Shown here: in pieces, positions 44,190 through 54,181 of the stretch
Numbering within the stretch: the stretch's first letter is position 1
Layout: every line of letters begins with the position of its first letter
From: a virus
IMG/VR virus record: IMGVR_UViG_3300042445_001340
Coordinates: 4,668-68,667 of that record
Strand: one strand, 5' to 3'
DNA: 64,000 nt
Notes under the pieces: generated by a model
What the model was told of the DNA's origin: nothing
Database searches by the model: none
Seen by the model: the letters and a program-made list of their open reading frames with translations, nothing else
Translations under genes and position numbers: made by a program

Positions 44190-45073
44190 GATATTGCTCC
44201 TAGGCGAGTTCCTGTCGCCAACCACGTTACGTTTGAATTGCCGCTAACGGCTGCGCCTGCGCTACCGCCTGCTGTCTGGCGGTTATATCCCACATACTGC
44301 CCTGTTGATCCAGCGGCACCCCAGTTACCTCCGGCACCGCCAGCGCCAGATATTGCACTTGGGCCACCGCTACTGGCTACGAACTGAGCGCCGCCAGCGC
44401 CTGCGGCGGTCGAAGTTCCACCTGCGCCGTTATACCCTCCTAAGCCACCAGCCGTGTCGGCACCTGCACCAGTTCGTCCGCCACCGCCACCGCCACCTCG
44501 AGCTTGTACAAAATAACCGTAATCTCCAGACACCGCATGGCCATCACCACCGCCGCCGCCACCTCCACCTCCACCTATGGTGTTGTTGTTTCTTACAGAC
44601 ACTGCAATAGATACAGACAGCGCCAAATTGCCGGTGCTGCCTGCTGTTCCGGTCGAATTGTAGTACGAACCATTACCCCCGTTACCACCTCGGCCAATAA
44701 TGAAGCCGTTGTTCGTTAGCTCCACTCCATTGGGAAAGGAGCCATTTACCGTCAGCGCAGGAGTGCCAGCAGTATTGCTTGAGATATAAACGCCAGAATT
44801 TATGGTGGCAATGACCTTGTTGCTGGCATTCCACCCAGCGTTAAGTGCCAGAGTGCGCAAGTTCGCGTTGGTCTGGTTGCTGCTGATCGTCAAGTTGAAT
44901 TGGTTCGCCTTGCCGTAGCCCTCCGACAGTGAGATAGTGGAGGTGGGATTGTAAAAACCTTTGAATAAAGTGTGGACCTCTGGATCATTCATGCTAATTG
45001 AAGCCGTCGCAGATCGGCCCAACTCGACGTTGACTTGGCTCAAGGAGATTGCACCGGATGATGGTAGTGCCAT
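44186..45073 (-). CDS. Glycine-rich tail-tip adhesin (T-even gp38-like architecture)
   Basis: MALPSSGAISLSQVNVELG; NNGFIIGRGGNGG; poly-Gly tracts; C-terminal TWLATGTRLG. Confidence 0.75.
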   Translation of the reverse strand: MALPSSGAISLSQVNVELGRSATASISMNDPEVHTLFKGFYNPTSTISLSEGYGKANQFNLTISSNQTNANLRTLALNAGWNASNKVIATINSGVYISSNTAGTPALTVNGSFPNGVELTNNGFIIGRGGNGGNGSYYNSTGTAGSTGNLALSVSIAVSVRNNNTIGGGGGGGGGGDGHAVSGDYGYFVQARGGGGGGGRTGAGADTAGGLGGYNGAGGTSTAAGAGGAQFVASSGGPSAISGAGGAGGNWGAAGSTGQYVGYNRQTAGGSAGAAVSGNSNVTWLATGTRLGAIS

Positions 45074-45127
45074 AAGCAGTACTCCTGTGTTAGTGGGCAC
45101 AAACAAAAATACCCTAAATCTAGAACT

Positions 45128-45156
45128 ATTATACTAGATTTAGGGTAGGTTTGCAA
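45128..45156 (-). promoter_or_regulatory. sigma70-type promoter for the adhesin cassette
   Basis: TTGCAA-17-TATAAT. Confidence 0.7.
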
Positions 45157-45170
45157 ATCAAAATTTTTGG

Positions 45171-45245
45171 TGGTACACGGTGACAGTTTCGAACTGCCGA
45201 CCCTCTCGGTGTAAACGAGACGCTCTACCACTGAGCTAACCGTGC
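45171..45245 (-). tRNA. tRNA-Val(TAC)
   Basis: Cloverleaf, loop TTTACAC, encoded CCA. Confidence 0.92.
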
Positions 45246-45250
45246 GTAAC

Positions 45251-45324
45251 TGGAGCAGGGTACCGGGATCGAACCGGTGTCACCAACTTGGAAGGATGGG
45301 GCACAGCCACTATACCAACCCTGC
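45251..45324 (-). tRNA. tRNA-Gly(TCC)
   Basis: Loop CTTCCAA, ends TCCA. Confidence 0.9.
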
Positions 45325-45327
45325 ACA

Positions 45328-45534
45328 TTAATTTAACATTTGTGGCACATAGCCAGTATCGGGACCACTAGCACCAGGTTTGCCTACCATGTTAGCATAA
45401 TCACTGACCATGGTAACAAAAGTACTGCCAGCGGCTCGTTCTGTGGCACAAAATTCTAAGGCTTTATTAAGGCTAGGGGTTATTGCCCAGCCTGTGCGAC
45501 CACCTTGAGTAGTCCAGTAAACTTTATACATCAT
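45328..45534 (-). CDS. Small hypothetical protein
   Basis: YKVYWT...FVTMVSD...VGKPG. Confidence 0.6.
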   Translation of the reverse strand: MMYKVYWTTQGGRTGWAITPSLNKALEFCATERAAGSTFVTMVSDYANMVGKPGASGPDTGYVPQMLN

Positions 45535-45564
45535 AATTTTGCTACTTTGGCGCCAAGATAAAGG

Positions 45565-45640
45565 TGGTGCGGGCTACAGGGTTCGAACCTGCGACATCCT
45601 CGTTGGCAACGAGGTGCTCTACCAGCTGAGCTAAGCACGC
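45565..45640 (-). tRNA. tRNA-Gly(GCC)
   Basis: Loop TTGCCAA; discriminator A. Confidence 0.88.
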
Positions 45641-45641
45641 A

Positions 45642-45950
45642 TTAAAAGGGCACATCATCGTCTTGAATACTGCGAATCATTTCGCGTTCTTGCTTGACTA
45701 AATCGTCTTCAAGCCAAGGTTTGACTTCCTGCTCTTCATGAATCTTCCAAGCTGCAAAACTAGCCTGCTCTTGGATTAGTTCAATTGCCTCAGGCTGAAA
45801 CTTAACATAACCAGACTTTTCTGCCCAGATTAAATATTCGTAGTGATCTTGAGCTACATCACAAATTCTGCATCCGGCTAGTTTGCCAAATGTTATTGTG
45901 TCGGTTAAACCCAGTTTAGGATTTTTGATGTTTTTGAATGATATTGCCAT
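45642..45950 (-). CDS. Small protein with an FGK...YL.W domain (ExoX C-terminal/DUF3820-like) and SSB-like DDDVPF tail
   Basis: ITFGKLAGCRICDVAQDHYEYLIWA; C-terminal DDDVPF. Confidence 0.65.
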   Translation of the reverse strand: MAISFKNIKNPKLGLTDTITFGKLAGCRICDVAQDHYEYLIWAEKSGYVKFQPEAIELIQEQASFAAWKIHEEQEVKPWLEDDLVKQEREMIRSIQDDDVPF

Positions 45951-46045
45951 ATATTAGAAAACAGCCCTTACCCCGATGATGTTATCGTTGGACAACAGGT
46001 ATCTCCCCTGCTTTTTTATAATGGATGCTATTTTCTAATATATGG
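45947..46045 (-). ncRNA. Stem-enclosed RNA cassette A
   Basis: 19-bp stem CCAUAUAUUAGAAAAUAGC/GCUGUUUUCUAAUAUAUGG (1 GU). Confidence 0.65.
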
Positions 46046-46134
46046 CGGGTGGCAGAGGAGTCGAACCCCATCCCGTTTCCGAGAACCTGGTTTTCAAGGC
46101 CAGTCGCAGGACCAACCCCGCTGCATTACCACCC
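46043..46134 (-). tRNA. tRNA-Ser(TGA)
   Basis: Long variable arm, loop CTTGAAA, ends GCCA. Confidence 0.9.
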
Positions 46135-46139
46135 ACGTT

Positions 46140-46727
46140 TTATTCTTTTGTTTCCGATTCTGCTTCGCGCTTGGCTTGCATGGCAGTTAAACGCTTGACT
46201 ACTTCTTCTGATCCCATCCAAATGTCTTTGTTGTGCATCATTGAGGATATTTCTTCACTAGTCAAAAAGTCCTGGTACACTTCAGTCATGAAGTTTTCCG
46301 ACCACGTACGTTCAAATTGCAGTTGATCGTACATTTCACCACCTTTGCCAAATGTTCCGGCTGAGTAGTTGTGAAACATAAATAAGCTGTGTGGTGTGAC
46401 TTCTTGACTATGACCATGTAGGAAAATCATGGTAGCTGCACTCATGCAAGCACCTTCTACACTGCACACAATAGTGGCTTCTGTTTCACCCATTACACGC
46501 AAAAACTGTAGTGTGGTAAAAAGATCACCACCAGGTGAGTTAATATAAATACGAACTGTATCGGTTGCACTAGCATTTCTGATTACATCAAACCATTCAA
46601 TGTATTCTTCAGCATCACAAATTTCGCCACTTAAGTAGAACTCATGAACATGTGCAACTGGTTTTGTAAAATTGTTAGAAAACTTGTCGGTTTGAAACAA
46701 TTTAGGGTCGAGAAAGTTAGATCGCAT
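46140..46727 (-). CDS. clpP: ClpP-like serine protease
   Basis: IYINSPGG, GACMSAAT (catalytic Ser), FMFH (His), DIWMGSEE. Confidence 0.85.
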   Translation of the reverse strand: MRSNFLDPKLFQTDKFSNNFTKPVAHVHEFYLSGEICDAEEYIEWFDVIRNASATDTVRIYINSPGGDLFTTLQFLRVMGETEATIVCSVEGACMSAATMIFLHGHSQEVTPHSLFMFHNYSAGTFGKGGEMYDQLQFERTWSENFMTEVYQDFLTSEEISSMMHNKDIWMGSEEVVKRLTAMQAKREAESETKE

Positions 46728-46737
46728 AAGTTCCTTT

Positions 46738-46850
46738 ACTATAGTTTAACATACTACCCATGCTGGGTGCTCCCAGTTACCCGCGGAAGGTGTGCTGCAG
46801 TCTACTCCGCATATATGCATTAAGTGGCAAGTAATATGCTAAACTATAGT
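46738..46850 (-). ncRNA. Stem-enclosed RNA cassette B between tmRNA and clpP
   Basis: 20-bp closing stem (2 GU); internal helices GCGGAG/UUCCGC and CUGGG/CCCAG. Confidence 0.65.
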
Positions 46851-47194
46851 GACAGCTTATTCTGTTACGAGGAAAGCTGTCGAAACCCTAAGCAGCCCTA
46901 TTTAGGCTGCCAATGCGTACGTGTTATCGTTTGCAGTTATTTTTGTTTTGTGTCTGCGGCCAGGAATCCCTAACCCTACGGCTTCTACATTGCCGAGTTG
47001 TCCGCTTTGCTACTCTTAGCCCGGTCGATCCTGTGTCAGGCCCATCAAAAGCACTCCTAGTGTTCCTAGGTCGGGAATTCCAGCCATCAGCCGTATGAGA
47101 AACAGCTTACTTGCTACCCTACTCAATGCTTATGGTGGACCTGGCGGGCACTGCCCCCGCGTGTCAGACTCTTTTGGTTTCGCTTCATACAACC
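46851..47194 (-). ncRNA. ssrA: Circularly permuted two-piece tmRNA: acceptor piece ~47194-47133, intervening segment 47132-47044, coding piece 47043-~46851; tag ANDNTYALAA
   Basis: GGGCCUG pairs with CAGGUCC-ACCA with G3:U70; T-arm GCGGG-GGCAGUG-CCCGC; D-loop-like ACACAGGAUCGAC; tag codons 46934-46902 after AAAAUAACU. Confidence 0.92.
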
Positions 47195-47289
47195 ATATCT
47201 ATAACCACTAGGGACTCGAACCCCGTATTCTGGTGGCCTACCAGTAGTTCCAAACTGCCAGAGCGACTGGTAGTGGTTATAGATATGGT
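47192..47289 (-). ncRNA. Stem-enclosed RNA cassette D with a T-loop
   Basis: Perfect 19-bp inverted repeat 47192-47210/47271-47289; internal GGGG-UUCGAGU-CCC. Confidence 0.7.
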
Positions 47290-47359
47290 GCCCCATGACA
47301 GAATCGAACTGCCGTAACCTGATTACAAAACAGGTGTAATACCATTATACTAATAGGGC
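47286..47359 (-). tRNA. tRNA-Thr(TGT)
   Basis: Loop TTTGTAA, ends ACCA. Confidence 0.9.
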
Positions 47360-47361
47360 AT

Positions 47362-47438
47362 TGGAGTCGGTGACAGGACTCGAACCTGCATAAAACGGAT
47401 TTGCAATCCGTGGCCTAGCCGTTCAGCTACACACCGAC
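47362..47438 (-). tRNA. tRNA-Cys(GCA)
   Basis: Loop TTGCAAA, U73. Confidence 0.9.
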
Positions 47439-47439
47439 A

Positions 47440-47643
47440 TTAAATTTGACGAGTACGTACTACTGTTTCAAAACTACTCCAGCAACGCTCAAACTTCATT
47501 TGATACATTTGCTTGAGTCCGATCAGGTAATTCATACGCTGATCTTCGTCCATGTTATCGTGCATATCCAGGTACAACTGAATGTCGTCAGTGACATTCC
47601 AGCACTGCATAATATTTTGTTCTAGGTCAAAGCGGTCAGTCAT
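47440..47643 (-). CDS. Small conserved phage protein
   Basis: DRFDLEQNIMQCWNVTDDI...NYLIGLKQMYQMKF. Confidence 0.65.
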   Translation of the reverse strand: MTDRFDLEQNIMQCWNVTDDIQLYLDMHDNMDEDQRMNYLIGLKQMYQMKFERCWSSFETVVRTRQI

Positions 47644-47773
47644 TTTGTAGTTCCTGTAATTTTTGTGTTAGTGCTAAGTTAACAAATTCACTTAAAGTTA
47701 AGTTTAAGTTTTTTGCTAATTGTTTTACTTGTTTTAATAGTTGCGCGTCAATGTGTATTGTAATCGTTTTCAT
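47636..47773 (-). CDS. Ribbon-helix-helix DNA-binding protein (45 aa, not in the ORF track)
   Basis: MKTITIHIDAQLLKQVKQLAKNLNLTLSEFVNLAL matches the RHH pattern. Confidence 0.65.
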   Translation of the reverse strand: MKTITIHIDAQLLKQVKQLAKNLNLTLSEFVNLALTQKLQELQND

Positions 47774-47774
47774 G

Positions 47775-48245
47775 TCAATTGGCAAGTACAAATTTTAGTC
47801 TGTCGGCCGCGTAACTTGCAGCAAATGCTTTGGGCTTAACCTGTGCGTCAATATTACAAGTTCCCTTGATATACCCAACAGCCTGTTGTACAACTGCTGA
47901 ACTTTTATAACGCTCGTTGGGATTAATGTCTAAGTGAACTTCAACGTGGCGATCTTCTAAGACGTCTGATAACTCGTGAAATAAGTCACTGACTTTGTAA
48001 ACTTCTTGCATTAGTCGCATTGAGGGCTTATTGGCTTTTTGATCCCAATCCCGTTCACGCTGAATACTACCAAAGATTTTGCACCCATGATTACCATCAA
48101 TATGCACAACAACTGCCAGAGTGTAGTCTGCGTACCAGTTTTCACCAATTTTAACTCGTTCCGAATCAGCACCAAGATAAATCTTAGTTTCTGGTGAACT
48201 TTGTCGAATATAGTTTTTTACTTCTTCAAGATTAAATTCACGCAT
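47775..48245 (-). CDS. YkuK/DUF458-family RNase H-like nuclease
   Basis: IYLGADS, RLMQEV, EVHLDIN, ASYAAD. Confidence 0.8.
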   Translation of the reverse strand: MREFNLEEVKNYIRQSSPETKIYLGADSERVKIGENWYADYTLAVVVHIDGNHGCKIFGSIQRERDWDQKANKPSMRLMQEVYKVSDLFHELSDVLEDRHVEVHLDINPNERYKSSAVVQQAVGYIKGTCNIDAQVKPKAFAASYAADRLKFVLAN

Positions 48246-48258
48246 AGTTTATTTTAAA

Positions 48259-48335
48259 TGGAGGGTCTGGAGGAAGTCGAATCCCCAACCTCTTGGTTCG
48301 TAGCCAAGTGCTCTCATCCATTGAGCTACAGACCC
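48259..48335 (-). tRNA. tRNA-Arg(ACG)
   Basis: Loop CTACGAA. Confidence 0.9.
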
Positions 48336-48338
48336 CGG

Positions 48339-48412
48339 TGGCAGAGGATAGAAGAATCGAACTTCTGACAACGGAATCAAAATCCGTGGTTATACCATTT
48401 AACTAATCCCCA
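48339..48412 (-). tRNA. tRNA-Gln(TTG)
   Basis: Loop TTTTGAT, U1. Confidence 0.9.
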
Positions 48413-48419
48413 ACAAAAC

Positions 48420-48494
48420 TGGCTCCACAGGCAGGGATCGAACCTACGACCAATTGATTAACAGTCAACTGCACTACCGCTGTGCTACTGTGGA
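48420..48494 (-). tRNA. tRNA-Asn(GTT)
   Basis: Loop CTGTTAA. Confidence 0.92.
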
Positions 48495-48495
48495 A

Positions 48496-48708
48496 TACTT
48501 AATACTAGTGCCCGGTGCGCCAACCCCGAGTGAGCTTCAGCGGCAGAAAAGGATACCACTTACACACTATAGCGCATTTTCACTAGAATTAAATATGCTG
48601 GTTACTTTTTCCAGCGTGCACTAACGGGGCACAGTCTTATTCATCCGGACGCCCGACAGGAACAACCCTTGTCATAACCGTTTACGTCTAACGAACCTAA
48701 GGCAGGTT
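48496..48708 (-). ncRNA. Two candidate structured RNAs (K2 48496-48595, K1 48596-48708)
   Basis: K2 closed by UAUUUAAUUCUAGUG/CACUAGUAUUAAGUA; K1 shares motifs with 49559-49641. Confidence 0.55.
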
Positions 48709-48709
48709 T

Positions 48710-48785
48710 TGGCGGGTCTAGGGGGTAACGATCCCCACTCTTCGGCAGTGACAGTGCCGTGTGCGTCCATGAACACTTTAGACCC
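48710..48785 (-). tRNA. tRNA-Asp(GTC)
   Basis: Loop CTGTCAC; atypical T-loop. Confidence 0.88.
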
Positions 48786-48789
48786 AATT

Positions 48790-48873
48790 TGGTACGACTG
48801 GAGGGACTTGAACCCTCAATCCTTGCGGCGATTGATTTTAAGTCAATTGTGTATTCCATTCCACCACAGTCGC
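48790..48873 (-). tRNA. tRNA-Leu(TAA)
   Basis: Loop CTTAAAA, long variable arm. Confidence 0.9.
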
Positions 48874-48878
48874 ATAGC

Positions 48879-49223
48879 TTACATTTTACCGTTTAATTTA
48901 TTTATATTACAGGCTTCTTCGTAACCATACTTAGCTACTACATTCTCAAAAGGACTCTTATGAGTACCATTAAGCCTAGCATCTGCAACATTCTCTTTTC
49001 TAGTACCCCAATACAGATGTTGTGGATTAGAGCACTCACCATTGTTACAAGCATGGCATAAGTCTATACCAATACCTTTCGGAAAATTAGTATTCAAGTA
49101 TTGCGCTAATACGCCTCTATGATTAGTACTATTACCACCACGTTCTATACATGGTTGGCTTAAGTCTAAATGAGAAGTTCTAATATCTCTGGATTCTTTA
49201 ATCCATTCAGTTATTTGAATCAT
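48879..49223 (-). CDS. Free-standing HNH (His-Cys) endonuclease, likely homing
   Basis: LCHACNNGECSNPQHLYWGTRKENVAD; start reassigned to MIQITEW. Confidence 0.8.
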   Translation of the reverse strand: MIQITEWIKESRDIRTSHLDLSQPCIERGGNSTNHRGVLAQYLNTNFPKGIGIDLCHACNNGECSNPQHLYWGTRKENVADARLNGTHKSPFENVVAKYGYEEACNINKLNGKM

Positions 49224-49228
49224 AAATT

Positions 49229-49315
49229 TGGTGGAAACAGTTTGACTCGAACAAACAAGGCCAGTGGCAAAAGATTTACAGTCTTCCCCCGATACCATTA
49301 CGGGACTATGTTTCC
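49229..49315 (-). tRNA. tRNA-Tyr(GTA)
   Basis: Loop CTGTAAA, long variable arm. Confidence 0.88.
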
Positions 49316-49367
49316 ACTTTAAAAGATAATTATACCCGATTAAGCAATCTTGGGCAAATCTAAATTT

Positions 49368-49442
49368 TGGCACGCCCCCAAGGACTTGAACCCTGACTAA
49401 CGGTTTTGGAGACCGACGTGCTGCCAATTACACTAGGGGCAT
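49368..49442 (-). tRNA. tRNA-Trp(CCA)
   Basis: Loop CTCCAAA. Confidence 0.9.
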
Positions 49443-49445
49443 ATT

Positions 49446-49520
49446 TGGTGGTTTTGAGTAGATTCGAACTACTGACCTAGGCCGTATGAAGACCGTGCAC
49501 TACCGCTGTGCTACAAAACC
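49446..49520 (-). tRNA. tRNA with CAT anticodon (Met/Ile2), unusual loop TTCATAC
   Basis: GGTTTTG/CAAAACC-ACCA cloverleaf. Confidence 0.8.
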
Positions 49521-49523
49521 AAC

Positions 49524-49865
49524 GGCCAGAGTACAGAATACTCTGGCCTAATAATAGGTGCCGGTTACATTCTCCGGCGTGACATTTCGTTGTCACTGAA
49601 GACATTGACGCTGTTTAAAGTCCACTAAGGGGGCATAGTCTATAGCCATAAGTAAACAGTAGCTTTAATTGTGTGTTATTTTTGTGTCAGGAAACATCAA
49701 ACCCCGTGAGAGCAGCCCATCTTGTTTTCGCTTCAGCGGACGCAGGACAGTGCCTTTACGCACTGATTTGTTTACAAGCCTGCAATTGTAGTAACAGGAG
49801 CCAATCTTCCTGTATAGCCGGAGCACTCCGGTAGCTTGCGCTAGTTTGGCACGTGTGCTTTACAA
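49524..49865 (-). ncRNA. ORF-free, densely structured RNA block (several candidate ncRNAs)
   Basis: Many hairpins (UAGC-GCAA-GCUA, ACAGGA/UCCUGU, CAGUGC/GCACUG, GUGACA/UGUCAC, GCCGG/CCGGC, 10-bp GGCCAGAGUA). Confidence 0.6.
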
Positions 49866-49867
49866 AG

Positions 49868-49937
49868 TGGATGCGGGGGAAGGATTCGAACCCCTAGGGC
49901 GAGCTTATGAGACTACCCGATCACCTGAATCCCCGCG
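49868..49937 (-). tRNA. Degenerate initiator-like tRNA-fMet(CAT), 70 nt
   Basis: C1:A72 mismatch (CGCGGGG/CCCCGCA); shortened D arm; bulged anticodon stem. Confidence 0.7.
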
Positions 49938-49941
49938 TTAA

Positions 49942-50082
49942 TTAGTACATCTTTTTGAAATCGTCGCTGGTACGATTCCATACGTTTTCTAGATGCTGTA
50001 GTTCTTCCATTGATTGTGGATTTGAGTCTTTGACGAAGTCCTCGAAAGTATATGGTTGAAATACTTCTCGGACACGTGTCAT
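49942..50082 (-). CDS. Small protein (46 aa, not in the ORF track)
   Basis: MTRVREVFQPYTFEDFVKDSNPQSMEELQHLENVW... Confidence 0.5.
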   Translation of the reverse strand: MTRVREVFQPYTFEDFVKDSNPQSMEELQHLENVWNRTSDDFKKMY

Positions 50083-50086
50083 TAAC

Positions 50087-50320
50087 TCACTTAGCATTTA
50101 CGAACTCGTAAAATTTCTTGGACTTTTCAACCATGTCGTTGAAGTCAAATGGCTTTGGCACGAACTTATCTAGTTGTGCAGTGGTTATTGCAGTTTTATC
50201 TTTGACGCTATCAAACATTTCTTGTGCAAACTCTACTGAGGCTGCGTATTCTGCTTGCATTAGCTCTGCTGTCATCTTGAGAATTTCAAGACGAATTTCA
50301 AAAGGAGATTTATTACTCAT
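50087..50320 (-). CDS. Small conserved phage protein
   Basis: MSNKSPFEIRLEILKM...KSKKFYEFV; SD caggaa. Confidence 0.7.
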   Translation of the reverse strand: MSNKSPFEIRLEILKMTAELMQAEYAASVEFAQEMFDSVKDKTAITTAQLDKFVPKPFDFNDMVEKSKKFYEFVNAK

Positions 50321-50423
50321 GGTTTTCCTGTGTGTTGTTGTGTAAAAGTGCCAGGCTTCCACTGGTCTTCCACCTCGTTTTATAGTCCGCGTGTCCTGGA
50401 CTGTAACTTCGGGAGAAGTTAAT

Positions 50424-50498
50424 TGGTACTGAGGGAGGATACCGAGACCTCGACCCCTCGCTTATCAAGCGAGTGCTCTGCCGCTGAGCTACCCCAGT
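50424..50498 (-). tRNA. tRNA-Ile(GAT)
   Basis: Loop TTGATAA; non-canonical T-loop CTCGGTA. Confidence 0.85.
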
Positions 50499-50504
50499 AA
50501 TATT

Positions 50505-50580
50505 TGGCCCCTGAGGTCAACGCCGATGTTGACATTCCCAACTATTGGCAAGGGTGTATACGGCCCCGCTAAACTCAAGG
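50505..50580 (-). ncRNA. 76-nt aberrant tRNA-like RNA ending in CCA
   Basis: 7-bp acceptor CCUUGAG/CUCAGGG-G-CCA; GUCAAC/GUUGAC T-arm-like stem; no UUC loop or canonical D/anticodon arms. Confidence 0.6.
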
Positions 50581-50587
50581 ATAATTT

Positions 50588-50662
50588 TGGTACTCCGAAC
50601 GGGTTTCGATCCCGCTTCTCCAACTTGAAAGGCTGGCGTCCTAGCCACTAGACGACCGGAGT
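50588..50662 (-). tRNA. tRNA-Glu(TTC)
   Basis: Loop CTTTCAA. Confidence 0.9.
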
Positions 50663-50712
50663 GTTTGTTTGAATATTAATTATACAGCGATTTAACTGTA
50701 ACTTCAACTGAA

Positions 50713-50841
50713 TATTTATAAGTTTAACCCTAACCACGGGCGAGTATGAGTCGAGACGTGGGCCTATTGCAACTACTAGGTGGATTAGTCCGTTCGTAAA
50801 GGATTGGTAATCACTCCAACTTAGGGTCAAACTTATAAATA
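50713..50841 (-). ncRNA. Stem-enclosed RNA cassette E
   Basis: 21-bp closing stem (1 GU), 50713-50733/50821-50841. Confidence 0.65.
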
Positions 50842-50843
50842 CT

Positions 50844-50919
50844 TGGTGCCGAAGACTGGGGTCGAACCAGTGACACACGGATTTTCAATCCGCTGCTCTA
50901 CCGCCTGAGCTACATCGGC
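50844..50919 (-). tRNA. tRNA-Phe(GAA)
   Basis: Loop TTGAAAA. Confidence 0.92.
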
Positions 50920-50924
50920 TATGC

Positions 50925-51137
50925 TTACCAAGGGTGGGTTTCTTGCCAGTTTATAGCTTCATAACCATCACAATCAATACGCCAAGGGCATTGCGACAGA
51001 ATGTTGGTAGAACAATCATCGTTGCCCCAGCATTGTGGAGGTTCTGTACCACGTAGTACTACAATTTGCTTGTGTACTAGTTCACGGCGATTGGCAAGAT
51101 TGGCTTCTTTGTCTAGCAATACTTGAATTTCAGTCAT
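50925..51137 (-). CDS. Small Cys-rich protein
   Basis: MTEIQ...PQCWGNDDCS...CPWRIDC. Confidence 0.55.
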   Translation of the reverse strand: MTEIQVLLDKEANLANRRELVHKQIVVLRGTEPPQCWGNDDCSTNILSQCPWRIDCDGYEAINWQETHPW

Positions 51138-51146
51138 ATAAACCTT

Positions 51147-51221
51147 TGGGCAGACGTTACGGATTCGATCCGTTCCTACGAGTTTCACAGACTCGGGTGC
51201 TTCCACTACACTAAACGCTGC
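51147..51221 (-). tRNA. tRNA-His(GTG)
   Basis: Loop CTGTGAA; ends CCCA; bulged acceptor stem. Confidence 0.85.
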
Positions 51222-51287
51222 ATAAATTACTGCACGTTATCTCGCAGCCACTGCCAGTATTGTTCTGTTGTCATATATTTCCTTGTT

Positions 51288-51375
51288 TGGCGGAATACGT
51301 AGGAATCGAACCTACCCACCCATTACTGGATGACAGATTAGCAATCTGTTGCCTTAACCGCTCGGCCAGTATTCC
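51288..51375 (-). tRNA. tRNA-Ser(GCT)
   Basis: Loop TTGCTAA, long variable arm. Confidence 0.92.
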
Positions 51376-51409
51376 ATATTTAAATATACTTAGTAAATAC
51401 ACTTAAATA

Positions 51410-51486
51410 TGGTAGATGCTGTGAGATTCGAACTCACGACTCTCGCCTTAAAAGGGCGATACTCTAACCAGCTGAGTTAAGCATCC
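51410..51486 (-). tRNA. tRNA-Lys(TTT)
   Basis: Loop CTTTTAA. Confidence 0.92.
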
Positions 51487-51599
51487 AGGCTGCGTTTCCA
51501 TTTGCCACGAAGCTGTTTGTGGCTTTTTTGATGTGAACCACTGCCACCACACTTCATCAGCGCAAGTTGGACATGGTTACGTGGTTTTCGTGTTTTCAT
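51477..51599 (-). CDS. 40-aa basic peptide (not in the ORF track)
   Basis: SD aaagga; MKTRKPRNHVQLALMKCGGSGSHQKSHKQLRGKWKRSLDA. Confidence 0.6.
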   Translation of the reverse strand: MKTRKPRNHVQLALMKCGGSGSHQKSHKQLRGKWKRSLDA

Positions 51600-51608
51600 A
51601 TATTCCTT

Positions 51609-51684
51609 TGGTGGAGGATACAGGGATCGAACCTGCGACCTACTGCTTGCAAAGCAGCCGCTCTCCCAGCTGAGCTAATCCCCC
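51609..51684 (-). tRNA. tRNA-Ala(TGC)
   Basis: G3:U70, loop TTTGCAA. Confidence 0.93.
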
Positions 51685-51690
51685 AAATTG

Positions 51691-51774
51691 TGGTGCGTCG
51701 AGAGAGACTCGAACTCTCAATCCTTGCGGCACTGGCTTCTAAGACCAGCGTGTATACCATTCCACCACCAACGC
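51691..51774 (-). tRNA. tRNA-Leu(TAG)
   Basis: Loop CTTAGAA. Confidence 0.92.
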
Positions 51775-51775
51775 A

Positions 51776-51943
51776 TTATACTTTTATGTCTACGTTTATG
51801 CCACGACTAGGGTCTACAGGTCTGTAGTAGACTACTTGTTGCACAAACTCTTTGTTATTTTGGTCTACTTTAGTTGTGTAGACTATCTCACGTATTTTAC
51901 CCAAATACGGAGTAAATGTTCTTGAAACGCTTTTTGTTTCCAT
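51776..51943 (-). CDS. 55-aa hypothetical protein (not in the ORF track)
   Basis: METKSVSRTF...RGINVDIKV fills the gap exactly. Confidence 0.5.
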   Translation of the reverse strand: METKSVSRTFTPYLGKIREIVYTTKVDQNNKEFVQQVVYYRPVDPSRGINVDIKV

Positions 51944-52125
51944 ATTGTTGTATACTTTGTTTACTACCCACCCCGCTAAGGGTGTGTTTCTGGCTTAGCG
52001 TATTCATGACGTACACCTGTACCAGAACTCAAGCCATACCCACTAACCTTCCCGGGTGTTAGTGTTCTCAAGCTTGCAATGTTCCATAACTGAATTGGCC
52101 ACTAGCAAAGCATACAACAATATGG
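51940..52125 (-). ncRNA. Stem-enclosed RNA cassette G (~145-nt cargo)
   Basis: 20-bp stem CCAUAUUGUUGUAUGCUUUG/CAAAGUAUACAACAAUAUGG (1 GU). Confidence 0.7.
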
Positions 52126-52196
52126 TCAAGGCGGCAAGAATCGAACTTGCGCTACAACGTCCCAAACGTCGGGTGATGCCATTTCACTACGCCCTG
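52123..52196 (-). tRNA. tRNA-Pro(TGG)
   Basis: C1, loop TTTGGGA. Confidence 0.9.
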
Positions 52197-52300
52197 ATAC
52201 ACACTTTTTAGAATAGTGCGAAATCTCCCCGATATAGCGATCTGTCGGTGGAAGCAAGATCAGAATAATAATTATACAGCAAAAGGGCTGCACAATCAAG

Positions 52301-52441
52301 TCAATATTTTACAAGGGCTAAAACAGCGCTGCGATGTTCTCGGCCTAATTCATCACGAACTGCACGAATTGCTGAATCGTAGTCAGTGCCGTCACAGTCC
52401 CACACAGCTAATTTTCCGTTGATTTTGGTAAAAACTCGCAT
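52301..52441 (-). CDS. 46-aa hypothetical protein (not in the ORF track)
   Basis: MRVFTKINGKLAVWD...; lies between two promoters. Confidence 0.5.
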   Translation of the reverse strand: MRVFTKINGKLAVWDCDGTDYDSAIRAVRDELGREHRSAVLALVKY

Positions 52442-52512
52442 GGTAGTGTTTCTTTCAAAGAGTAGTAATTATACTTGAAAAAGCATATAACCACAAGTGT
52501 AAATTTTTAAAC

Positions 52513-52583
52513 CCATAATTTAACACACTAAACTACTTAGGCTGCAATAGGAGCCATTGTTCGCCTAATGTGTTAAATTATGG
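52513..52583 (-). ncRNA. Stem-enclosed RNA cassette H
   Basis: CCAUAAUUUAACACAUUAG/UUAGUGUGUUAAAUUAUGG. Confidence 0.6.
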
Positions 52584-52754
52584 TGGATCGGGCAGGACTC
52601 GAACCTGCTACAATAAATTATACAACACACGACCATGTATTCGAACTCAGGCTGAATTGTAGCTGATTACGCCGTTGCAGGGCCAGGGTCAACTATCTAC
52701 ATTCAAAAGTGTTGTATGCCGGCTTTGTGCTTTAACCATATAAGCTACCGATCC
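52581..52754 (-). ncRNA. 174-nt tRNA-scaffolded RNA with ~100 extra nt replacing the anticodon arm
   Basis: GGAUCGG/CCGAUCC-ACCA, D arm GCUU/AAGC, T arm GCAGG-UUCGAGU-CCUGC; insert closed by AUACAACAC/GUGUUGUAU. Confidence 0.8.
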
Positions 52755-52839
52755 ATATAAAAACACATTTAAACCGTCCTTCAACGCTAGTCGCTATCTC
52801 CCTTACTAGAGGGCGGAACAGTATGTGCTTTTATATGGA
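52752..52839 (-). ncRNA. Stem-enclosed RNA cassette I
   Basis: 17-bp UCCAUAUAAAAGCACAU/AUGUGUUUUUAUAUGGA. Confidence 0.65.
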
Positions 52840-52859
52840 GACACTCCCTAAAGTGTCCC

Positions 52860-53025
52860 AATATAGTCTTGTGTCAGGATGACAGTCCTGCTGTATCTTA
52901 GAATATCCAAACATTCCCTCTACAGCGGCGGGACGTTTATTTTACAAAGACGGGGCTTTCACCCGTTTCGACCGAAGTGTGCTGCTAACCACTAGGGATG
53001 TGGCAACAAGCATGGCGGGACTTAT
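52860..53025 (-). ncRNA. Two tandem candidate RNAs, each starting GUCCCGCC
   Basis: Motif at 53021-53014 and 52934-52927, each followed by long hairpins. Confidence 0.5.
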
Positions 53026-53223
53026 TTAGTTAGTACTTTTATATACTTTGATTGCTTCAGCATCTAAGCTAGCATAAACACGAAACTTGTCTCGACCTAC
53101 TCGATCATAAAGATCGCCTGCCATGCACTCTAGCCGCACAAGTTTCTCGATTGAAATTAGTGTGCAGTTAACGTAGCGTGACATAAAAGCATTTATAAGA
53201 AAGTCGCGTGAATAGCCACTCAT
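53026..53223 (-). CDS. Small hypothetical protein
   Basis: YSRDFLINAFMSRY...YDRVGRDKFRVYASLDA; SD ggag. Confidence 0.6.
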   Translation of the reverse strand: MSGYSRDFLINAFMSRYVNCTLISIEKLVRLECMAGDLYDRVGRDKFRVYASLDAEAIKVYKSTN

Positions 53224-53235
53224 AAGTTCTCCAAA

Positions 53236-53580
53236 TCAGTCTATATTATAAAGCATTTCGGCTACTTCGTCAAGTGTTAAAACACGAATCTTAGTATCGC
53301 CGCGATCATCGGCCTGTTTTAGCCAATTTGCTAATACTCCGTGCATTAAGCCACTCAAGTGGTAGTTGTTGTTATGACAGCGGTATGTGCTGCCTGAATA
53401 ACCGTCGAACTCAAACCAGTCTTCAACCTTACGTGTAACAGTAATGCCACTATTAAGTTTCCAGCAATTCGACCCAGCAAAGCCGCCGTACCAGCCAGCA
53501 AATACTTTGCGGATTGGTGTTTCAAGTTCAGGTGCGTCAAATTCTAGCACAACCCAAACGTCTGGTGTATAGGTACTCAT
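53236..53580 (-). CDS. Conserved phage protein
   Basis: YTPDVWVV...KVFAGWYGGFAGSNCWKLNSGI...FDGYSGSTYRC. Confidence 0.75.
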   Translation of the reverse strand: MSTYTPDVWVVLEFDAPELETPIRKVFAGWYGGFAGSNCWKLNSGITVTRKVEDWFEFDGYSGSTYRCHNNNYHLSGLMHGVLANWLKQADDRGDTKIRVLTLDEVAEMLYNID

Positions 53581-53642
53581 ATTATTTCTCCAAATCAGAC
53601 TATATTATAATCTGATTTAAGCAAATGTTCAAGTTTGAATTT

Positions 53643-53717
53643 TGGTACGCCGTGCAGGAATCGAACCCGCATAAAGGGCTTAGAAGACCCGTGTATTATC
53701 CGTTATACGAACAGCGT
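53643..53717 (-). tRNA. tRNA-Arg(TCT)
   Basis: Loop CTTCTAA. Confidence 0.9.
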
Positions 53718-53722
53718 ATTGT

Positions 53723-54181
53723 TTACATTTTTACAGTAACTGGGCCATATGGTACAAACAGTTCAGCTTCAAACATCTGCACAAGTTCAGGGTCCATGTA
53801 CTCAAAGTTGTCTGGAATGTTTAGCACAATAGCTTTAGATTCTATTTGTTCCAACAATTCACGATGACCCAAAAAGTTATCTTCCAGTTGCCACTGATTT
53901 TCGCCGTTAACAAACACAATCTTTTCTGCCCAGTTAATCAAGTTGGCACTACAAGGAATCAGGGCGTAGTTAAAGTTTGAACCACAACTACGTGCATTGA
54001 TTCCACGCTGTACAGCTAGAGCAGCGCCGGTTGGGCTTCGCAAGAGGCCAGCACTGCACACAAACAACCAACGAGGACGATCACTTTGAAAGTGATTGGC
54101 ATAAGGTGCTGTAGTTTTAAAGATAGTGTCATTTTTAGTACCGGCTGCAAATTCGCGTAAGTTTGGGTTAGTTGGATTCAT
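53723..54181 (-). CDS. Low-molecular-weight protein-tyrosine-phosphatase-like protein
   Basis: LFVCSAGLLRSPT (CX5R loop), LNIPDNFEYMDPEL. Confidence 0.8.
   Translation of the reverse strand: MNPTNPNLREFAAGTKNDTIFKTTAPYANHFQSDRPRWLFVCSAGLLRSPTGAALAVQRGINARSCGSNFNYALIPCSANLINWAEKIVFVNGENQWQLEDNFLGHRELLEQIESKAIVLNIPDNFEYMDPELVQMFEAELFVPYGPVTVKM

What the first reader, a model, noticed from the sequence alone, without database searches (positions are those of the whole stretch)
45947..52839. tRNA array carries a set of cargo RNAs, each clamped by a CCAUA...UAUGG closing stem
Seen: eight spacers are closed by long AU-rich stems: 45947-46045 (19 bp), 46738-46850 (20), 47192-47289 (19, perfect), 50713-50841 (21), 51374-51412 (18), 51940-52125 (20), 52513-52583 (19) and 52752-52839 (17). 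A shorter stem closes 48496-48595. Every deviation from a perfect inverted repeat in the eight is a G-U pair on the minus strand, so selection appears to act on the transcript, not the DNA. Six stems start with CCAUA and end with UAUGG. In five the CCA is the encoded 3' end of the upstream tRNA or tRNA-like RNA. The final (AU)GG is the first bases of the next RNA (tRNA-Ser 51375, scaffold RNA 52754, tmRNA acceptor piece) or the AUG of the next ORF (45950, 51943). The stems otherwise differ in sequence and enclose unrelated inserts of 3 to ~145 nt. Established: T4 encodes stable non-tRNA species (RNA C and D) in its tRNA cluster, and RNase P and 3' trimming release whatever lies between tRNAs. 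Inference: this is a modular system that uses tRNA processing to release a library of end-protected (possibly circularised) small RNAs, such as decoys, aptamers or anti-defence sponges. It could also couple tRNA maturation to translation of the downstream ORF. I do not recognise it as a described system.
Basis: partly seen in the sequence, partly recalled or inferred. Interest (0 to 1): 0.92.

Follow-up and report, generated by a model that had tools for sequence, protein, structure and literature searches.

The report
Stem-closed small-RNA cassettes in phage tRNA array
A lake phage distantly related to coliphage T5 places small folded RNAs between its tRNA genes, each closed by a roughly 20-base-pair stem that starts on the CCA end of the RNA before it; related phages keep the stems but swap the contents, and what the RNAs do is unknown.

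Summary
All eight stems exist (17-23 bp, 0-5 G-U pairs, no other mismatch). Dinucleotide shuffles give 0.015 such stems per region. Every deviation is a G-U pair in the transcript sense.

In 45 non-redundant related arrays I found 297 such stems. They sit at fixed slots: after tRNA-Thr in 22 of 27 arrays, after Lys in 17 of 19, after Pro in 14 of 20. They are kept by compensatory changes and follow a loose consensus, CCAUAUWWWAGCACAYU.

The contents are real modules. There are 122 cargo families. Several fold with strong covariation (36 of 54 pairs for window 51940-52125), and none matches Rfam. The same cargo occurs in different slots, including the excised spacer of the split tmRNA.

The nearest known thing is the set of "stable RNAs with unknown functions" annotated in coliphage T5. 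T5 RNAIII sits in the same kind of 20-bp stem, running from a CCA to the next tRNA, and its annotated ends lie inside the stem with a 2-nt 3' overhang.

Best reading: these are looped-out RNA cassettes that host RNase III, RNase P and 3' trimming release. Release, circularisation and function are not shown, and I found no phage ligase.

Earlier notes of this scan describe the same kind of element on other phage DNA.

The parts
52752..52839 (-). Cassette: 17-bp closing stem (1 G-U) with a 54-nt cargo (family 15, found in 4 of 45 arrays). The 5' arm starts on the CCA that follows a 7-bp minihelix. The 3' arm ends in GGA, the first bases of the tRNA-like RNA.
   Evidence: MFE keeps the stem, z = -5.8
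52584..52754 (-). tRNA-like RNA. It has an acceptor stem, D arm, T arm and CCA, with about 110 nt in place of the anticodon arm. Its CCA begins the next stem.
   Evidence: Rfam tRNA model, 37.7 bits (gathering score 29); sequence read
52513..52583 (-). Cassette: 18-21-bp stem with a 29-35-nt cargo (family 3, 8 arrays). In locus L008 the same cargo sits after tRNA-Lys.
   Evidence: 9 of 28 pairs with changes on both sides; z = -8.3
51940..52125 (-). Cassette: 20-bp stem from the CCA of tRNA-Pro to the ATG at 51943, with a 146-nt multi-helix cargo (family 2, 12 arrays). The conserved motif of this cargo is found in 24 viral contigs.
   Evidence: 36 of 54 pairs with changes on both sides; 97.7% of cells paired against 78% in shuffles; 0 of 500 shuffles reach the observed value
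51374..51412 (-). Cargo-less hairpin: 18 bp (3 G-U) with a 3-nt loop, spanning exactly from the CCA of tRNA-Lys to G1 and G2 of tRNA-Ser.
   Evidence: z = -5.7
50711..50843 (-). Cassette: 21-23-bp stem that begins immediately after the CCA of tRNA-Phe, with an 87-nt cargo (family 4, 8 arrays). In locus L017 the same cargo sits after tRNA-Lys.
   Evidence: 10 of 42 pairs with changes on both sides; z = -4.9
48496..48597 (-). Cassette with a shorter stem: 16 bp with one U-U mismatch and one G-U. Its roughly 70-nt cargo belongs to the largest family (family 0, 17 relatives). It ends at tRNA-Asn.
   Evidence: 20 of 31 pairs with changes on both sides; z = -3.2
47192..47289 (-). Cassette: perfect 19-bp stem from the A-CCA of tRNA-Thr to GGU, the first bases of the tmRNA. 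The 60-nt cargo contains a T-arm-like hairpin (family 27, 2 arrays).
   Evidence: z = -4.7
46902..47194 (-). Circularly permuted (two-piece) tmRNA gene with tag ANDNTYALAA. It has a cassette on each side.
   Evidence: RF04321, 97.1 bits; ARAGORN
47041..47135 (-). Intervening segment of the tmRNA, running from the CCA of the acceptor piece to the GGG of the coding piece. It is closed by the same kind of stem: 4 bp, a 3-nt bulge, then 7 bp, starting at CCAUAA.
   Evidence: the same build is seen in 5 relatives, and the intervening cargos of 3 relatives match spacer-cargo families 38, 29 and 25
46738..46850 (-). Cassette: 20-23-bp stem that starts ACUAUAG rather than CCA, directly after the tmRNA. 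The 67-nt cargo is family 1 (14 arrays). In most relatives this cargo sits after tRNA-Thr. It is followed by the Shine-Dalgarno site and ATG of the ClpP-like gene.
   Evidence: 12 of 37 pairs with changes on both sides; z = -4.2
45946..46046 (-). Cassette: 20-bp stem from the G-CCA of the tRNA-Ser/Sec-like RNA (46048-46133) to the ATG at 45950. The 61-nt cargo is family 6 (6 arrays). In relatives this cargo sits before tRNA-Asn inside a different stem.
   Evidence: z = -7.3

Best explanation
These are stem-closed small-RNA cassettes of the kind that coliphage T5 carries as 'stable RNAs with unknown functions'.

The tRNA array is transcribed as polycistronic RNA from several promoters. At certain junctions a self-folding cargo RNA is inserted. 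These junctions lie between the CCA end of one RNA and the first G of the next tRNA or tmRNA piece, or the AUG of the next ORF. An AU-rich helix of about 20 bp loops the cargo out, so the flanking ends lie next to each other as they do in an ordinary short spacer.

Inferred steps. Host RNase III cuts the two-turn helix. RNase P cuts at the downstream tRNA. 3' exonucleases trim the upstream RNA back to its encoded CCA. This frees the flanking RNAs and leaves a cargo RNA capped by the inner half of the stem. Where the 3' arm contains a start codon, cutting would also unmask it.

The CCAUA...UAUGG ends follow from constraints on the neighbours. C74, C75 and A76 of the upstream RNA pair with U(-1), G(+1) and G(+2) of the downstream RNA, or with an AUG followed by G. 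The rest of the stem follows a loose shared consensus, but within one genome the stems are kept distinct from one another, which would prevent wrong pairings.

The cargos are an exchangeable pool of structured RNAs of unknown function.

Shown: the stems, RNA-level selection on them, fixed slots, cargo exchange, cargo covariation, and the T5 parallel. Inferred: which nucleases act, that cargo RNAs accumulate, and what they do.
For: - The stems are far beyond chance: 8 observed against 0.015 expected.
- G-U outnumbers A-C 150:37 in the array sense in 210 unique stems, and 7:0 in the window.
- There are 297 stems in 45 arrays. Arm length peaks at 19-20 bp, with 22-23 bp also common, which is about two helical turns.
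- Slots are fixed: Thr 22 of 27, Lys 17 of 19, Pro 14 of 20, and 0 at Met, Gln, Cys, Gly, Val and His.
- Arms are kept by compensation while the cargo differs. After Lys: 13 unique arm pairs with 10 cargo families, 96.6% paired, 15 of 18 positions compensated. After Thr: 20 arm pairs with 13 families, 98.3% paired, 12 of 18 compensated.
- 26 of 297 stems have loops of 10 nt or less, so the stem is kept even without cargo.
- The tmRNA intervening segment has to be removed to give a two-piece tmRNA. It is built the same way and shares cargo families with the tRNA spacers.
- T5 parallel: RNAIII lies in a 20-bp helix (2 G-U) that starts on the CCA of RNAI and ends in tRNA-His. Its annotated 5' end is arm position 9, and its 3' end overhangs by 2 nt. 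RNAIV and RNA2H also end inside longer helices, with 1 and 3 nt overhangs.
- Four near-complete relatives and the window's own record encode no RNase III, dsRBD, ligase or CCA-adding enzyme, so host enzymes must do the processing.
- Every window element keeps its closing stem in the minimum-free-energy fold, with z from -3.2 to -8.3.
Against: - I have no RNA end data for this phage. The RNA-library material was assembled contigs of relatives, which cannot show ends and may contain DNA. One such contig spans a whole cassette and both its flanks (46682-46874).
- RNase III cleavage is inferred only from helix length and from the ends in the T5 annotation. I could not see the experiments behind that annotation. 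The 3' end of T5 RNAIII also coincides with the annotated 5' end of tRNA-His, so RNase P alone could make it.
- Most tRNAs in these arrays are separated by 2-8 nt without any stem, so tRNA maturation does not need the stems.
- The shared arm consensus is not needed for RNase III and hints at another recognition factor or at common descent.
- The host is unknown.
Confidence: 0.6

Rival explanations
1. Pure tRNA punctuation with an end clamp. RNase P at the downstream tRNA and 3' processing of the upstream tRNA alone release the cargo. The full-length stem stays on the cargo and protects both its ends from exonucleases. RNase III plays no part.
For: - 86 of 297 stems start in the last 8 nt of a called tRNA or tmRNA, and 57 end within 10 nt of a called tRNA start.
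- The tmRNA intervening segment lies between a CCA and the 5' G of one acceptor stem, where RNase P and 3' trimming are the expected enzymes (the enzymology is established knowledge that I recall).
- The annotated 3' end of T5 RNAIII abuts tRNA-His.
Against: - A clamp needs only about 8-10 bp, yet selection keeps 17-24 bp.
- The annotated 5' end of T5 RNAIII lies 8 bp inside a perfect helix, where single-strand nucleases do not cut.
- Many stems abut ORFs or have no called tRNA beside them: 131 lie more than 100 nt after one, and 216 lie more than 100 nt before one.
- Uninterrupted dsRNA of 20 bp is a standard RNase III substrate (established knowledge, recalled).
Confidence: 0.22
2. Selfish or recombination-driven DNA cassettes, like MITEs, Correia elements or integron cassettes. 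On this reading the inverted repeats are terminal repeats or recombination sites that spread through the array, and the RNA folding is a by-product.
For: - Cassettes are present in some relatives and absent in others, and the same cargo occurs in different slots.
- The arms share a consensus.
- HNH homing-endonuclease genes lie inside the arrays.
- Cargo-less stems could be remnants.
Against: - The G-U to A-C asymmetry of 150:37 is not expected for a DNA signal.
- 0 of 1234 within-array arm pairs are identical and only 1 reaches 90% identity, so there is no sign of recent copying.
- Arms at one slot evolve by compensatory change, not by sequence conservation.
- Cargos have covarying structures of their own.
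- All elements lie on the transcribed strand of the array.
Confidence: 0.08
3. The stems are mainly regulatory. They sequester the upstream CCA and the downstream start codon or 5' end, to order maturation and to tie translation of small ORFs to processing of the array. The cargo is only a spacer.
For: - 35 of 297 stems have an ATG in the last 8 nt of the 3' arm that opens an ORF of at least 40 aa. About 26 of them fall in 6 conserved protein families (12 MAISFK, 5 METKS, 4 MKKxW, 2 ClpP-like, 2 MVQNY, 1 MSDLQ).
- The window has two such cases, at 45950 and 51943, and no Shine-Dalgarno site within the arm.
Against: - Only about 9% of stems touch a credible start codon.
- Cargo families are conserved in sequence and structure across slots, which a spacer would not be.
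- Other ORFs, such as the ClpP-like gene in the window, have a normal Shine-Dalgarno site outside the stem.
Confidence: 0.1

Closest known systems
Coliphage T5 'stable RNAs with unknown functions' (RNAIII, RNAIV, RNA2H, RNAI, RNA1, RNA2, RNA3, RNAX), annotated in RefSeq NC_005859
   Same: - The host phage is T5-like: the DNA polymerase is 48% identical to those of the Vibrio phage pVp-1 group, and relatives have direct terminal repeats.
- The RNAs are non-coding, lie between tRNA genes and run in the same direction as them.
- RNAIII is closed by a 20-bp helix with G-U pairs in the transcript sense. The helix begins on the CCA of the upstream RNA and ends in the first bases of the next tRNA.
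- The function is unknown, and Rfam has no family for them.
   Different: - There is no sequence similarity beyond an 18-21-nt T-arm match.
- The T5 stems do not follow the CCAUAU consensus.
- The shared connector, the fixed slots, cargo exchange between slots and the use of the tmRNA spacer are documented here. I found none of this in the papers I could search.
- I did not see the primary T5 and BF23 RNA papers of the 1980s; I only recall that they exist.
RNase III processing stalks: rRNA operon stems, phage T7 early-RNA sites, and the intervening sequences of 23S rRNA
   Same: A helix of about two turns brackets a unit that is cut out of a polycistronic transcript. The annotated ends of T5 RNAIII show the 2-nt 3' overhang expected of RNase III. 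What is known about RNase III substrates is recalled, not taken from a call.
   Different: Here each stalk closes a small cargo of its own and starts on a tRNA CCA. The stems are almost perfect and AU-rich, and they share a consensus. Cleavage has not been shown.
Intervening segment of circularly permuted (two-piece) tmRNA genes
   Same: The segment lies between an encoded CCA and a 5' G and has to be removed. In this phage and 5 relatives it is closed by the same kind of stem, and in 3 relatives it carries cargo families also found in tRNA spacers.
   Different: Most cassettes lie between separate RNAs or in front of ORFs, not inside a single RNA gene.
Phage T4 rnaC and rnaD (species 1 and species 2 RNAs)
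   Same: They are small stable RNAs of unknown function, encoded in a phage tRNA cluster and running in the same direction as the tRNAs.
   Different: Their predicted folds have no long closing stem. T4 has two RNAs, not a set of slots, and no cargo exchange is known.
Correia and ERIC-type miniature inverted-repeat elements
   Same: These are inverted-repeat elements that are co-transcribed and fold into long hairpins. That RNase III cuts Correia transcripts is something I recall; I did not check it.
   Different: There are no near-identical copies here (0 of 1234 arm pairs). Wobble pairs are strand-specific. The stems evolve by compensatory change. The cargos have structures of their own.

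Membership tests
T5-type stable RNAs of the tRNA region | Non-coding unit inside the tRNA array of a T5-like phage, on the same strand as the tRNAs | tested here: met
   All ten elements lie on the minus strand between tRNA genes. The DNA polymerase is closest to those of T5-like Vibrio phages.
T5-type stable RNAs of the tRNA region | Terminal helix that joins the CCA of the upstream RNA to the start of the downstream tRNA | tested here: met
   T5 RNAIII has a 20-bp helix of this kind. In the window, 5 stems begin on the CCA of a called tRNA or tRNA-like RNA and a sixth on the CCA of a minihelix. Four end in the next RNA or in an ATG that opens the next ORF.
T5-type stable RNAs of the tRNA region | Accumulates as a discrete stable RNA during infection | not testable with these tools
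   Only assembled contigs of RNA libraries were available.
T5-type stable RNAs of the tRNA region | Sequence homology to the T5 RNAs | tested here: not met
   blastn of 8 T5 RNAs against 45 arrays found only 18-21-nt T-arm matches for RNA2. This is the same kind of element, not the same family.
RNase III substrate | Uninterrupted dsRNA of about two helical turns | tested here: met
   The stems are 17-23 bp with only Watson-Crick and G-U pairs. Across 297 elements the commonest arm length is 19-20 bp.
RNase III substrate | Staggered cleavage with 2-nt 3' overhangs that depends on rnc | not testable with these tools
   The only indirect evidence is that the annotated ends of T5 RNAIII give a 2-nt 3' overhang.
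Miniature inverted-repeat transposable element (Correia-like) | Several near-identical copies or terminal repeats within one genome | tested here: not met
   0 of 1234 within-array arm pairs are identical, and 1 reaches 90% identity.
Miniature inverted-repeat transposable element (Correia-like) | Decay of the repeats that is symmetrical between DNA strands | tested here: not met
   150 G-U against 37 A-C in the array sense.
Miniature inverted-repeat transposable element (Correia-like) | Target-site duplication | not tested
   I did not look for duplications systematically.
Any Rfam 15 family (riboswitch, ribozyme, sRNA, Y RNA-like and others) | Covariance-model match to the cargo | tested here: not met
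   cmscan of 45000-54000 at E up to 1 matched only tRNA and tmRNA models, plus one weak hit inside the ClpP-like ORF.
Intrinsic terminator | G+C-rich hairpin followed by a run of U | tested here: not met
   The stems are AU-rich and no U run follows them. None of the eight is among the terminator-like sites.
Intervening segment of a two-piece tmRNA | Lies between the CCA of the acceptor piece and the 5' GGG of the coding piece | tested here: met
   This holds for 47135-47041 only. The other elements lie outside the tmRNA.

The most novel reading that the evidence does not exclude
The connector stems may define an RNA-level cassette system. A standard helix of about 20 bp that starts on a CCA would let any structured RNA be plugged into set slots of a phage tRNA array, and even into the spacer of its split tmRNA. 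The RNA would then be transcribed at tRNA levels and excised by host RNase III and RNase P as a stem-capped stable RNA. On this reading the more than 100 cargo families exchanged among T5-like phages are a shared arsenal of RNAs that act on the host. They could be decoys for defence nucleases that target tRNAs, sponges for RNA-binding proteins, or regulators that pair with ribosome-binding sites. The pyrimidine-rich CCUCC-like loop of family 0 would fit the last role.
Probability: 0.3. Interest if true: 0.9.

Novelty: new variant of a known kind. Interest (0 to 1): 0.7.

Why it matters
Phage tRNA arrays are now seen as counter-defence loci, yet the non-tRNA RNAs inside them have had no known role since they were first seen in T4 and T5.

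This window and its 44 relatives show three things about those RNAs. They are not oddities of two coliphages. They form a large, modular and evolving set with at least 122 cargo families, several of which have a covariation-supported fold and none of which is in Rfam. They are held in a common connector and swapped between slots.

That gives a concrete handle on the question. T5 RNAIII has the same build and grows in E. coli, where rnc, rnpA and rne mutants and defence-system libraries exist. Both the release mechanism and the function can therefore be tested directly.

The connector could also serve as a natural design for expressing stable RNAs from tRNA operons.

Tried and rejected
- RNA evidence. 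The run search found only DNA holders with a high share of the stretch, plus RNA libraries with shares of 0.05-0.18, all kept as assembled contigs. Laying four of them gave contigs of relatives over many parts of the array, including the cassettes at 52741-52838, 46682-46874 and 50636-50849. It gave no ends, no joints I could interpret and no circular junctions. I draw no conclusion from it about expression, processing or habitat.
- Known phages. No DNA match in near mode. In distant mode only tRNA-sized matches.
- Rfam. No family matches any cargo, and none matches the T5 RNAs.
- Phage-encoded enzymes. RNase III (PF14622), dsrm, RtcB, RNA_ligase (PF09414) and PolyA_pol were each found in 0 of 5 records. 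PF00636 and the T4 Rnl1 family were not searched.
- The PF04308 RNase H-like gene inside the array, considered as a dedicated nuclease. It is present in 4 of 4 relatives but absent from T5, which has the same kind of RNA. It has no relative with a solved structure. It is therefore not required in general, and the question stays open.
- The pseudoknot proposed for 51940-52125 in another note on this window (CGCUAAG pairing with CUUAGCG). In alignment A1 the CUUAGCGG segment never varies, while its proposed partner varies without compensation. Not supported.
- Cargo as decayed tRNAs. Only 13 of 264 cargos have a strict T-arm-like hairpin.
- Terminators and promoters. Neither explains the stems.
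- Integron attC sites. I considered them from memory only. The stems lack the conserved core that I recall, and the strand-specific G-U pairs point to RNA. Not tested.
- T4 rnaC and rnaD. Their predicted folds have no long closing stem.
- Literature. Searches listed no paper on stem-closed cassettes in phage tRNA arrays. Most subscription-journal papers, and the old T5 and BF23 papers, are outside that library.
- What I saw of each paper. PMC3985635: passages on YkuK. PMC11464382: a passage of the reference list only. PMC2330249: passages, with nothing on stable RNAs. All other papers: search listings only. I neither needed nor opened any supplements.

Full report
WHAT IS THERE

The window is 64 kb of a 68.7-kb viral contig. 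Sequencing runs that hold it are labelled lake-water metagenomes. ARAGORN finds 24 genes, all on the minus strand. Of these, 22 tRNAs and a permuted tmRNA lie between 45171 and 53717. Rfam confirms the tmRNA (RF04321, 97.1 bits, 47194-46902). At E up to 1 it adds a tRNA-Tyr-like gene (49232-49315), a tRNA-like RNA with a large insert (52584-52754) and a tRNA-Ser/Sec-like RNA (46048-46133). Nothing else in the spacers matches.

No known phage is close at the DNA level. The DNA polymerase is 48% identical to those of T5-like Vibrio phages of the pVp-1 group. Two complete relatives have direct terminal repeats and about 100 kb. The phage is therefore a distant T5-like phage.

The eight stems are found by the repeat finder and by an ungapped helix scan of the minus-strand RNA. 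They are 17-23 bp long and have 0-5 G-U pairs and no other mismatch.

- In 200 dinucleotide shuffles of 45900-53100 the mean number of stems of at least 17 bp was 0.015. The longest shuffled stem was 17 bp. Eight are observed.
- A scan that seeds on perfect 9-mers and then accepts G-U and A-C mismatches alike gave 7 G-U and 0 A-C in the seven array stems it seeded.
- Each element keeps its closing stem in the minimum-free-energy fold, with z from -3.2 to -8.3.
- The details about the CCA, the GG and the ATG are correct.
- The shorter stem at 48496-48597 is real.
- I add a tenth element, the intervening segment of the tmRNA (47135-47041). A helix of 4 bp, a 3-nt bulge and 7 bp, starting at CCAUAA, closes it.

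RELATIVES

Two proteins encoded inside the array were used to fetch related DNA: a ClpP-like protease and a PF04308 RNase H-like protein. They brought in 108 loci from viral contigs. Of these, 71 have at least 5 tRNAs, and they reduce to 45 non-redundant arrays including the window.

A relaxed scan found 297 long stems on the array strand, with a median of 6 per array. The commonest arm length is 19-20 bp, and 22-23 bp is also common. The same relaxed scan finds 271 stems on the opposite strand, because most pairs are Watson-Crick. The strand signal lies in the wobble pairs: 150 G-U against 37 A-C in 210 unique stems. With strict Watson-Crick-plus-G-U helices there are 195 unique stems in the array sense against 121 in the antisense. 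These sequences are related to one another, so the counts are not independent events.

SLOTS AND COMPENSATION

The stems sit at particular junctions:
- after tRNA-Thr in 22 of 27 arrays
- after Lys in 17 of 19
- after Pro in 14 of 20
- after Tyr in 10 of 30
- after Glu in 8 of 31
- after Phe in 7 of 21
- at none of the Met, Gln, Arg, Cys, Gly, Val or His genes

At one slot the arms change in a compensatory way while the cargo differs. After Lys there are 13 unique arm pairs around 10 cargo families, with 96.6% of cells paired and 15 of 18 positions showing changes on both sides. After Thr there are 20 arm pairs and 13 families, with 98.3% paired and 12 of 18 positions compensated.

Of the 297 elements, 136 have a CCA in the first 6 nt and 102 start with CCAUA. 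In 86, the 5' arm starts in the last 8 nt of a called tRNA or tmRNA. 664 of 672 tRNAs encode their CCA.

Arms aligned on the CCA give the consensus CCAUAUWWWAGCACAYU, so the stems are not otherwise unrelated. Within one array, however, no two arms are identical (0 of 1234 pairs, and 1 at 90% or more). That argues against recent copying and fits a need to avoid wrong pairings.

THE CARGO

The 264 cargos of at least 25 nt fall into 122 similarity clusters: 36 with two or more members and 86 singletons.

| Family | Window element | Sequences | Pairs with changes on both sides |
|---|---|---|---|
| 2 | 51940-52125 | 12 | 36 of 54 |
| 0 | 48496-48597 | 18 | 20 of 31 |
| 1 | 46738-46850 | 14 | 12 of 37 |
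| 4 | 50711-50843 | 8 | 10 of 42 |
| 3 | 52513-52583 | 8 | 9 of 28 |

For family 2, 97.7% of cells are paired against 78% in shuffles, 0 of 500 shuffles reach the observed value, and the slid controls give 34-41% paired. Family 6 (45946-46046) has an almost invariant cargo inside quite different stems.

The same cargo occupies different slots:
- Family 1 follows the tmRNA in the window but follows tRNA-Thr in most relatives.
- Family 3 lies upstream of tRNA-Pro but follows tRNA-Lys in L008.
- Family 4 follows Phe but follows Lys in L017.
- Family 6 precedes an ORF in the window but precedes tRNA-Asn elsewhere.

In L008 the outer stem is the usual one for the slot after Lys and only the interior is exchanged. 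26 of the 297 stems have loops of 10 nt or less, so the stem persists without cargo.

The tmRNA intervening segments of three relatives carry cargo families that sit in tRNA spacers of other phages. That segment has to be removed to make a two-piece tmRNA; this is established knowledge that I recall. The cassettes therefore behave as excised intervening sequences.

THE KNOWN PARALLEL

The T5 RefSeq record annotates RNAIII, RNAI, RNA1, RNA2H, RNAIV, RNA2, RNA3 and RNAX in its tRNA region as stable RNAs, or tRNA-like stable RNAs, with unknown functions.

RNAIII lies in a 20-bp helix with 2 G-U pairs in the transcript sense. The helix begins on the GCCA end of RNAI and ends in the first bases of tRNA-His. 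Its annotated 5' end is arm position 9, and its 3' end extends 2 nt beyond the partner of that base. RNAIV and RNA2H also end inside longer helices, with overhangs of 1 and 3 nt. A 5' end in the middle of a perfect helix, with a 2-nt 3' overhang, is what RNase III leaves (recalled). However, the 3' end also abuts the annotated tRNA-His, so RNase P could make it.

The T5 RNAs share no sequence with these arrays except a T-arm match, and Rfam has no family for them. T4 rnaC and rnaD are annotated small stable RNAs, but their predicted folds lack a long closing stem.

MECHANISM

The window's own record and four near-complete relatives encode no RNase III, dsRBD, RtcB, Rnl2-type ligase or CCA-adding enzyme. 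Host enzymes must therefore do the processing, and nothing in the phage supports circularisation. The PF04308 gene in the array is present in 4 of 4 relatives but absent from T5.

I read the stems as connectors that loop a self-folding cargo out of the transcript. Host RNase III most likely cuts them, and RNase P and 3' trimming finish the neighbouring RNAs. The CCAUA...UAUGG ends follow from the neighbours: CCA pairs with U(-1), G(+1) and G(+2), or with an AUG followed by G.

In about 26 credible cases out of 297, the start codon of a conserved ORF lies inside the 3' arm. Two of these are in the window. Cutting would unmask such a codon, but this is an inference.

Against this reading, I have no end data for this phage. 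Most tRNAs in the arrays are only 2-8 nt apart and need no stem. The shared arm consensus is not explained by RNase III.

NOVELTY

The kind is known from T5, with no known function. What I found in no paper I could search is:
- the common connector
- the fixed slots
- the exchange of more than a hundred cargo families
- the link to the tmRNA spacer
- the covariation-supported cargo structures

Earlier notes of this scan describe the same kind of element on other phage DNA. I treated them as leads and tested the T5 claim and the tmRNA-spacer claim myself.

Noticed in passing
window 47775-48245 (-): A 156-aa ORF inside the tRNA array matches Pfam PF04308 (RNaseH_like, YkuK/DUF458; E = 1.9e-18) and PHROG 11311. 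It is conserved in 34 related loci and in 4 of 4 near-complete relatives, but is absent from T5. The family is a predicted endonuclease of the RNase H1 clade with no tested function. It is a candidate phage RNA-processing enzyme.
   Followed up: partly
window 52584-52754 (-): A tRNA-like RNA (Rfam tRNA model, 37.7 bits) has a normal acceptor stem, D arm, T arm and CCA. Its anticodon arm is replaced by a helix of about 10 bp that holds roughly 75 nt, which resembles a natural 'tRNA scaffold'.
   Followed up: partly
window 52836-52857 (-): A 7-bp hairpin is followed by one base and CCA, which looks like an acceptor-stem minihelix. It supplies the CCA on which the stem at 52839-52752 starts. Earlier notes of this scan describe similar CCA-ended mini-hairpins in other phages.
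   Followed up: no
window 49524-49945 (-): A non-coding stretch of about 350 nt lies between a degenerate tRNA-like sequence (about 49880-49945, called by neither ARAGORN nor Rfam) and tRNA-Met. Contigs of RNA libraries from relatives cover 49670-49836 at high depth. The fold z-score is only -2.3. The stretch ends in a terminator-like hairpin at 49548-49524.
   Followed up: partly
window 46140-47194 (-): The two-piece tmRNA (tag ANDNTYALAA) lies directly upstream of a ClpP-like protease gene (PHROG 1827), with one cassette between them. This could be a tag-and-degrade pairing.
   Followed up: no
window 48496-48597 and alignment A3: The central hairpin loop of cargo family 0 is always pyrimidine-rich, with CCUCC- or CCUUCC-like runs. 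This resembles an anti-Shine-Dalgarno sequence, and the loop could pair with ribosome-binding sites.
   Followed up: no
window 52513-52583 and alignment A6: The core of cargo family 3 can be read as a 6-codon mini-ORF (MAPIAA, stop) without a Shine-Dalgarno site. Its variants are either synonymous changes or compensatory changes in a GGCY/RGCC hairpin, and I cannot tell which.
   Followed up: partly
loci L013, L015, L020, L026, L027, L082, L084: stem after tRNA-Lys: Several relatives keep an A-C mismatch at the same stem position (position 8 counted from the CCA; 4 of 13 unique arm pairs). It may be a conserved irregularity, not decay.
   Followed up: no
window 48879-49229 (-): An HNH homing-endonuclease-like ORF sits inside the tRNA array, as in T5, which has several heg genes in its tRNA region.
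   Followed up: no
window 24626-26464 (-): An SbcC-like subunit of a palindrome-specific endonuclease (PHROG 77) is encoded by a phage whose array is full of interrupted palindromes.
   Followed up: no
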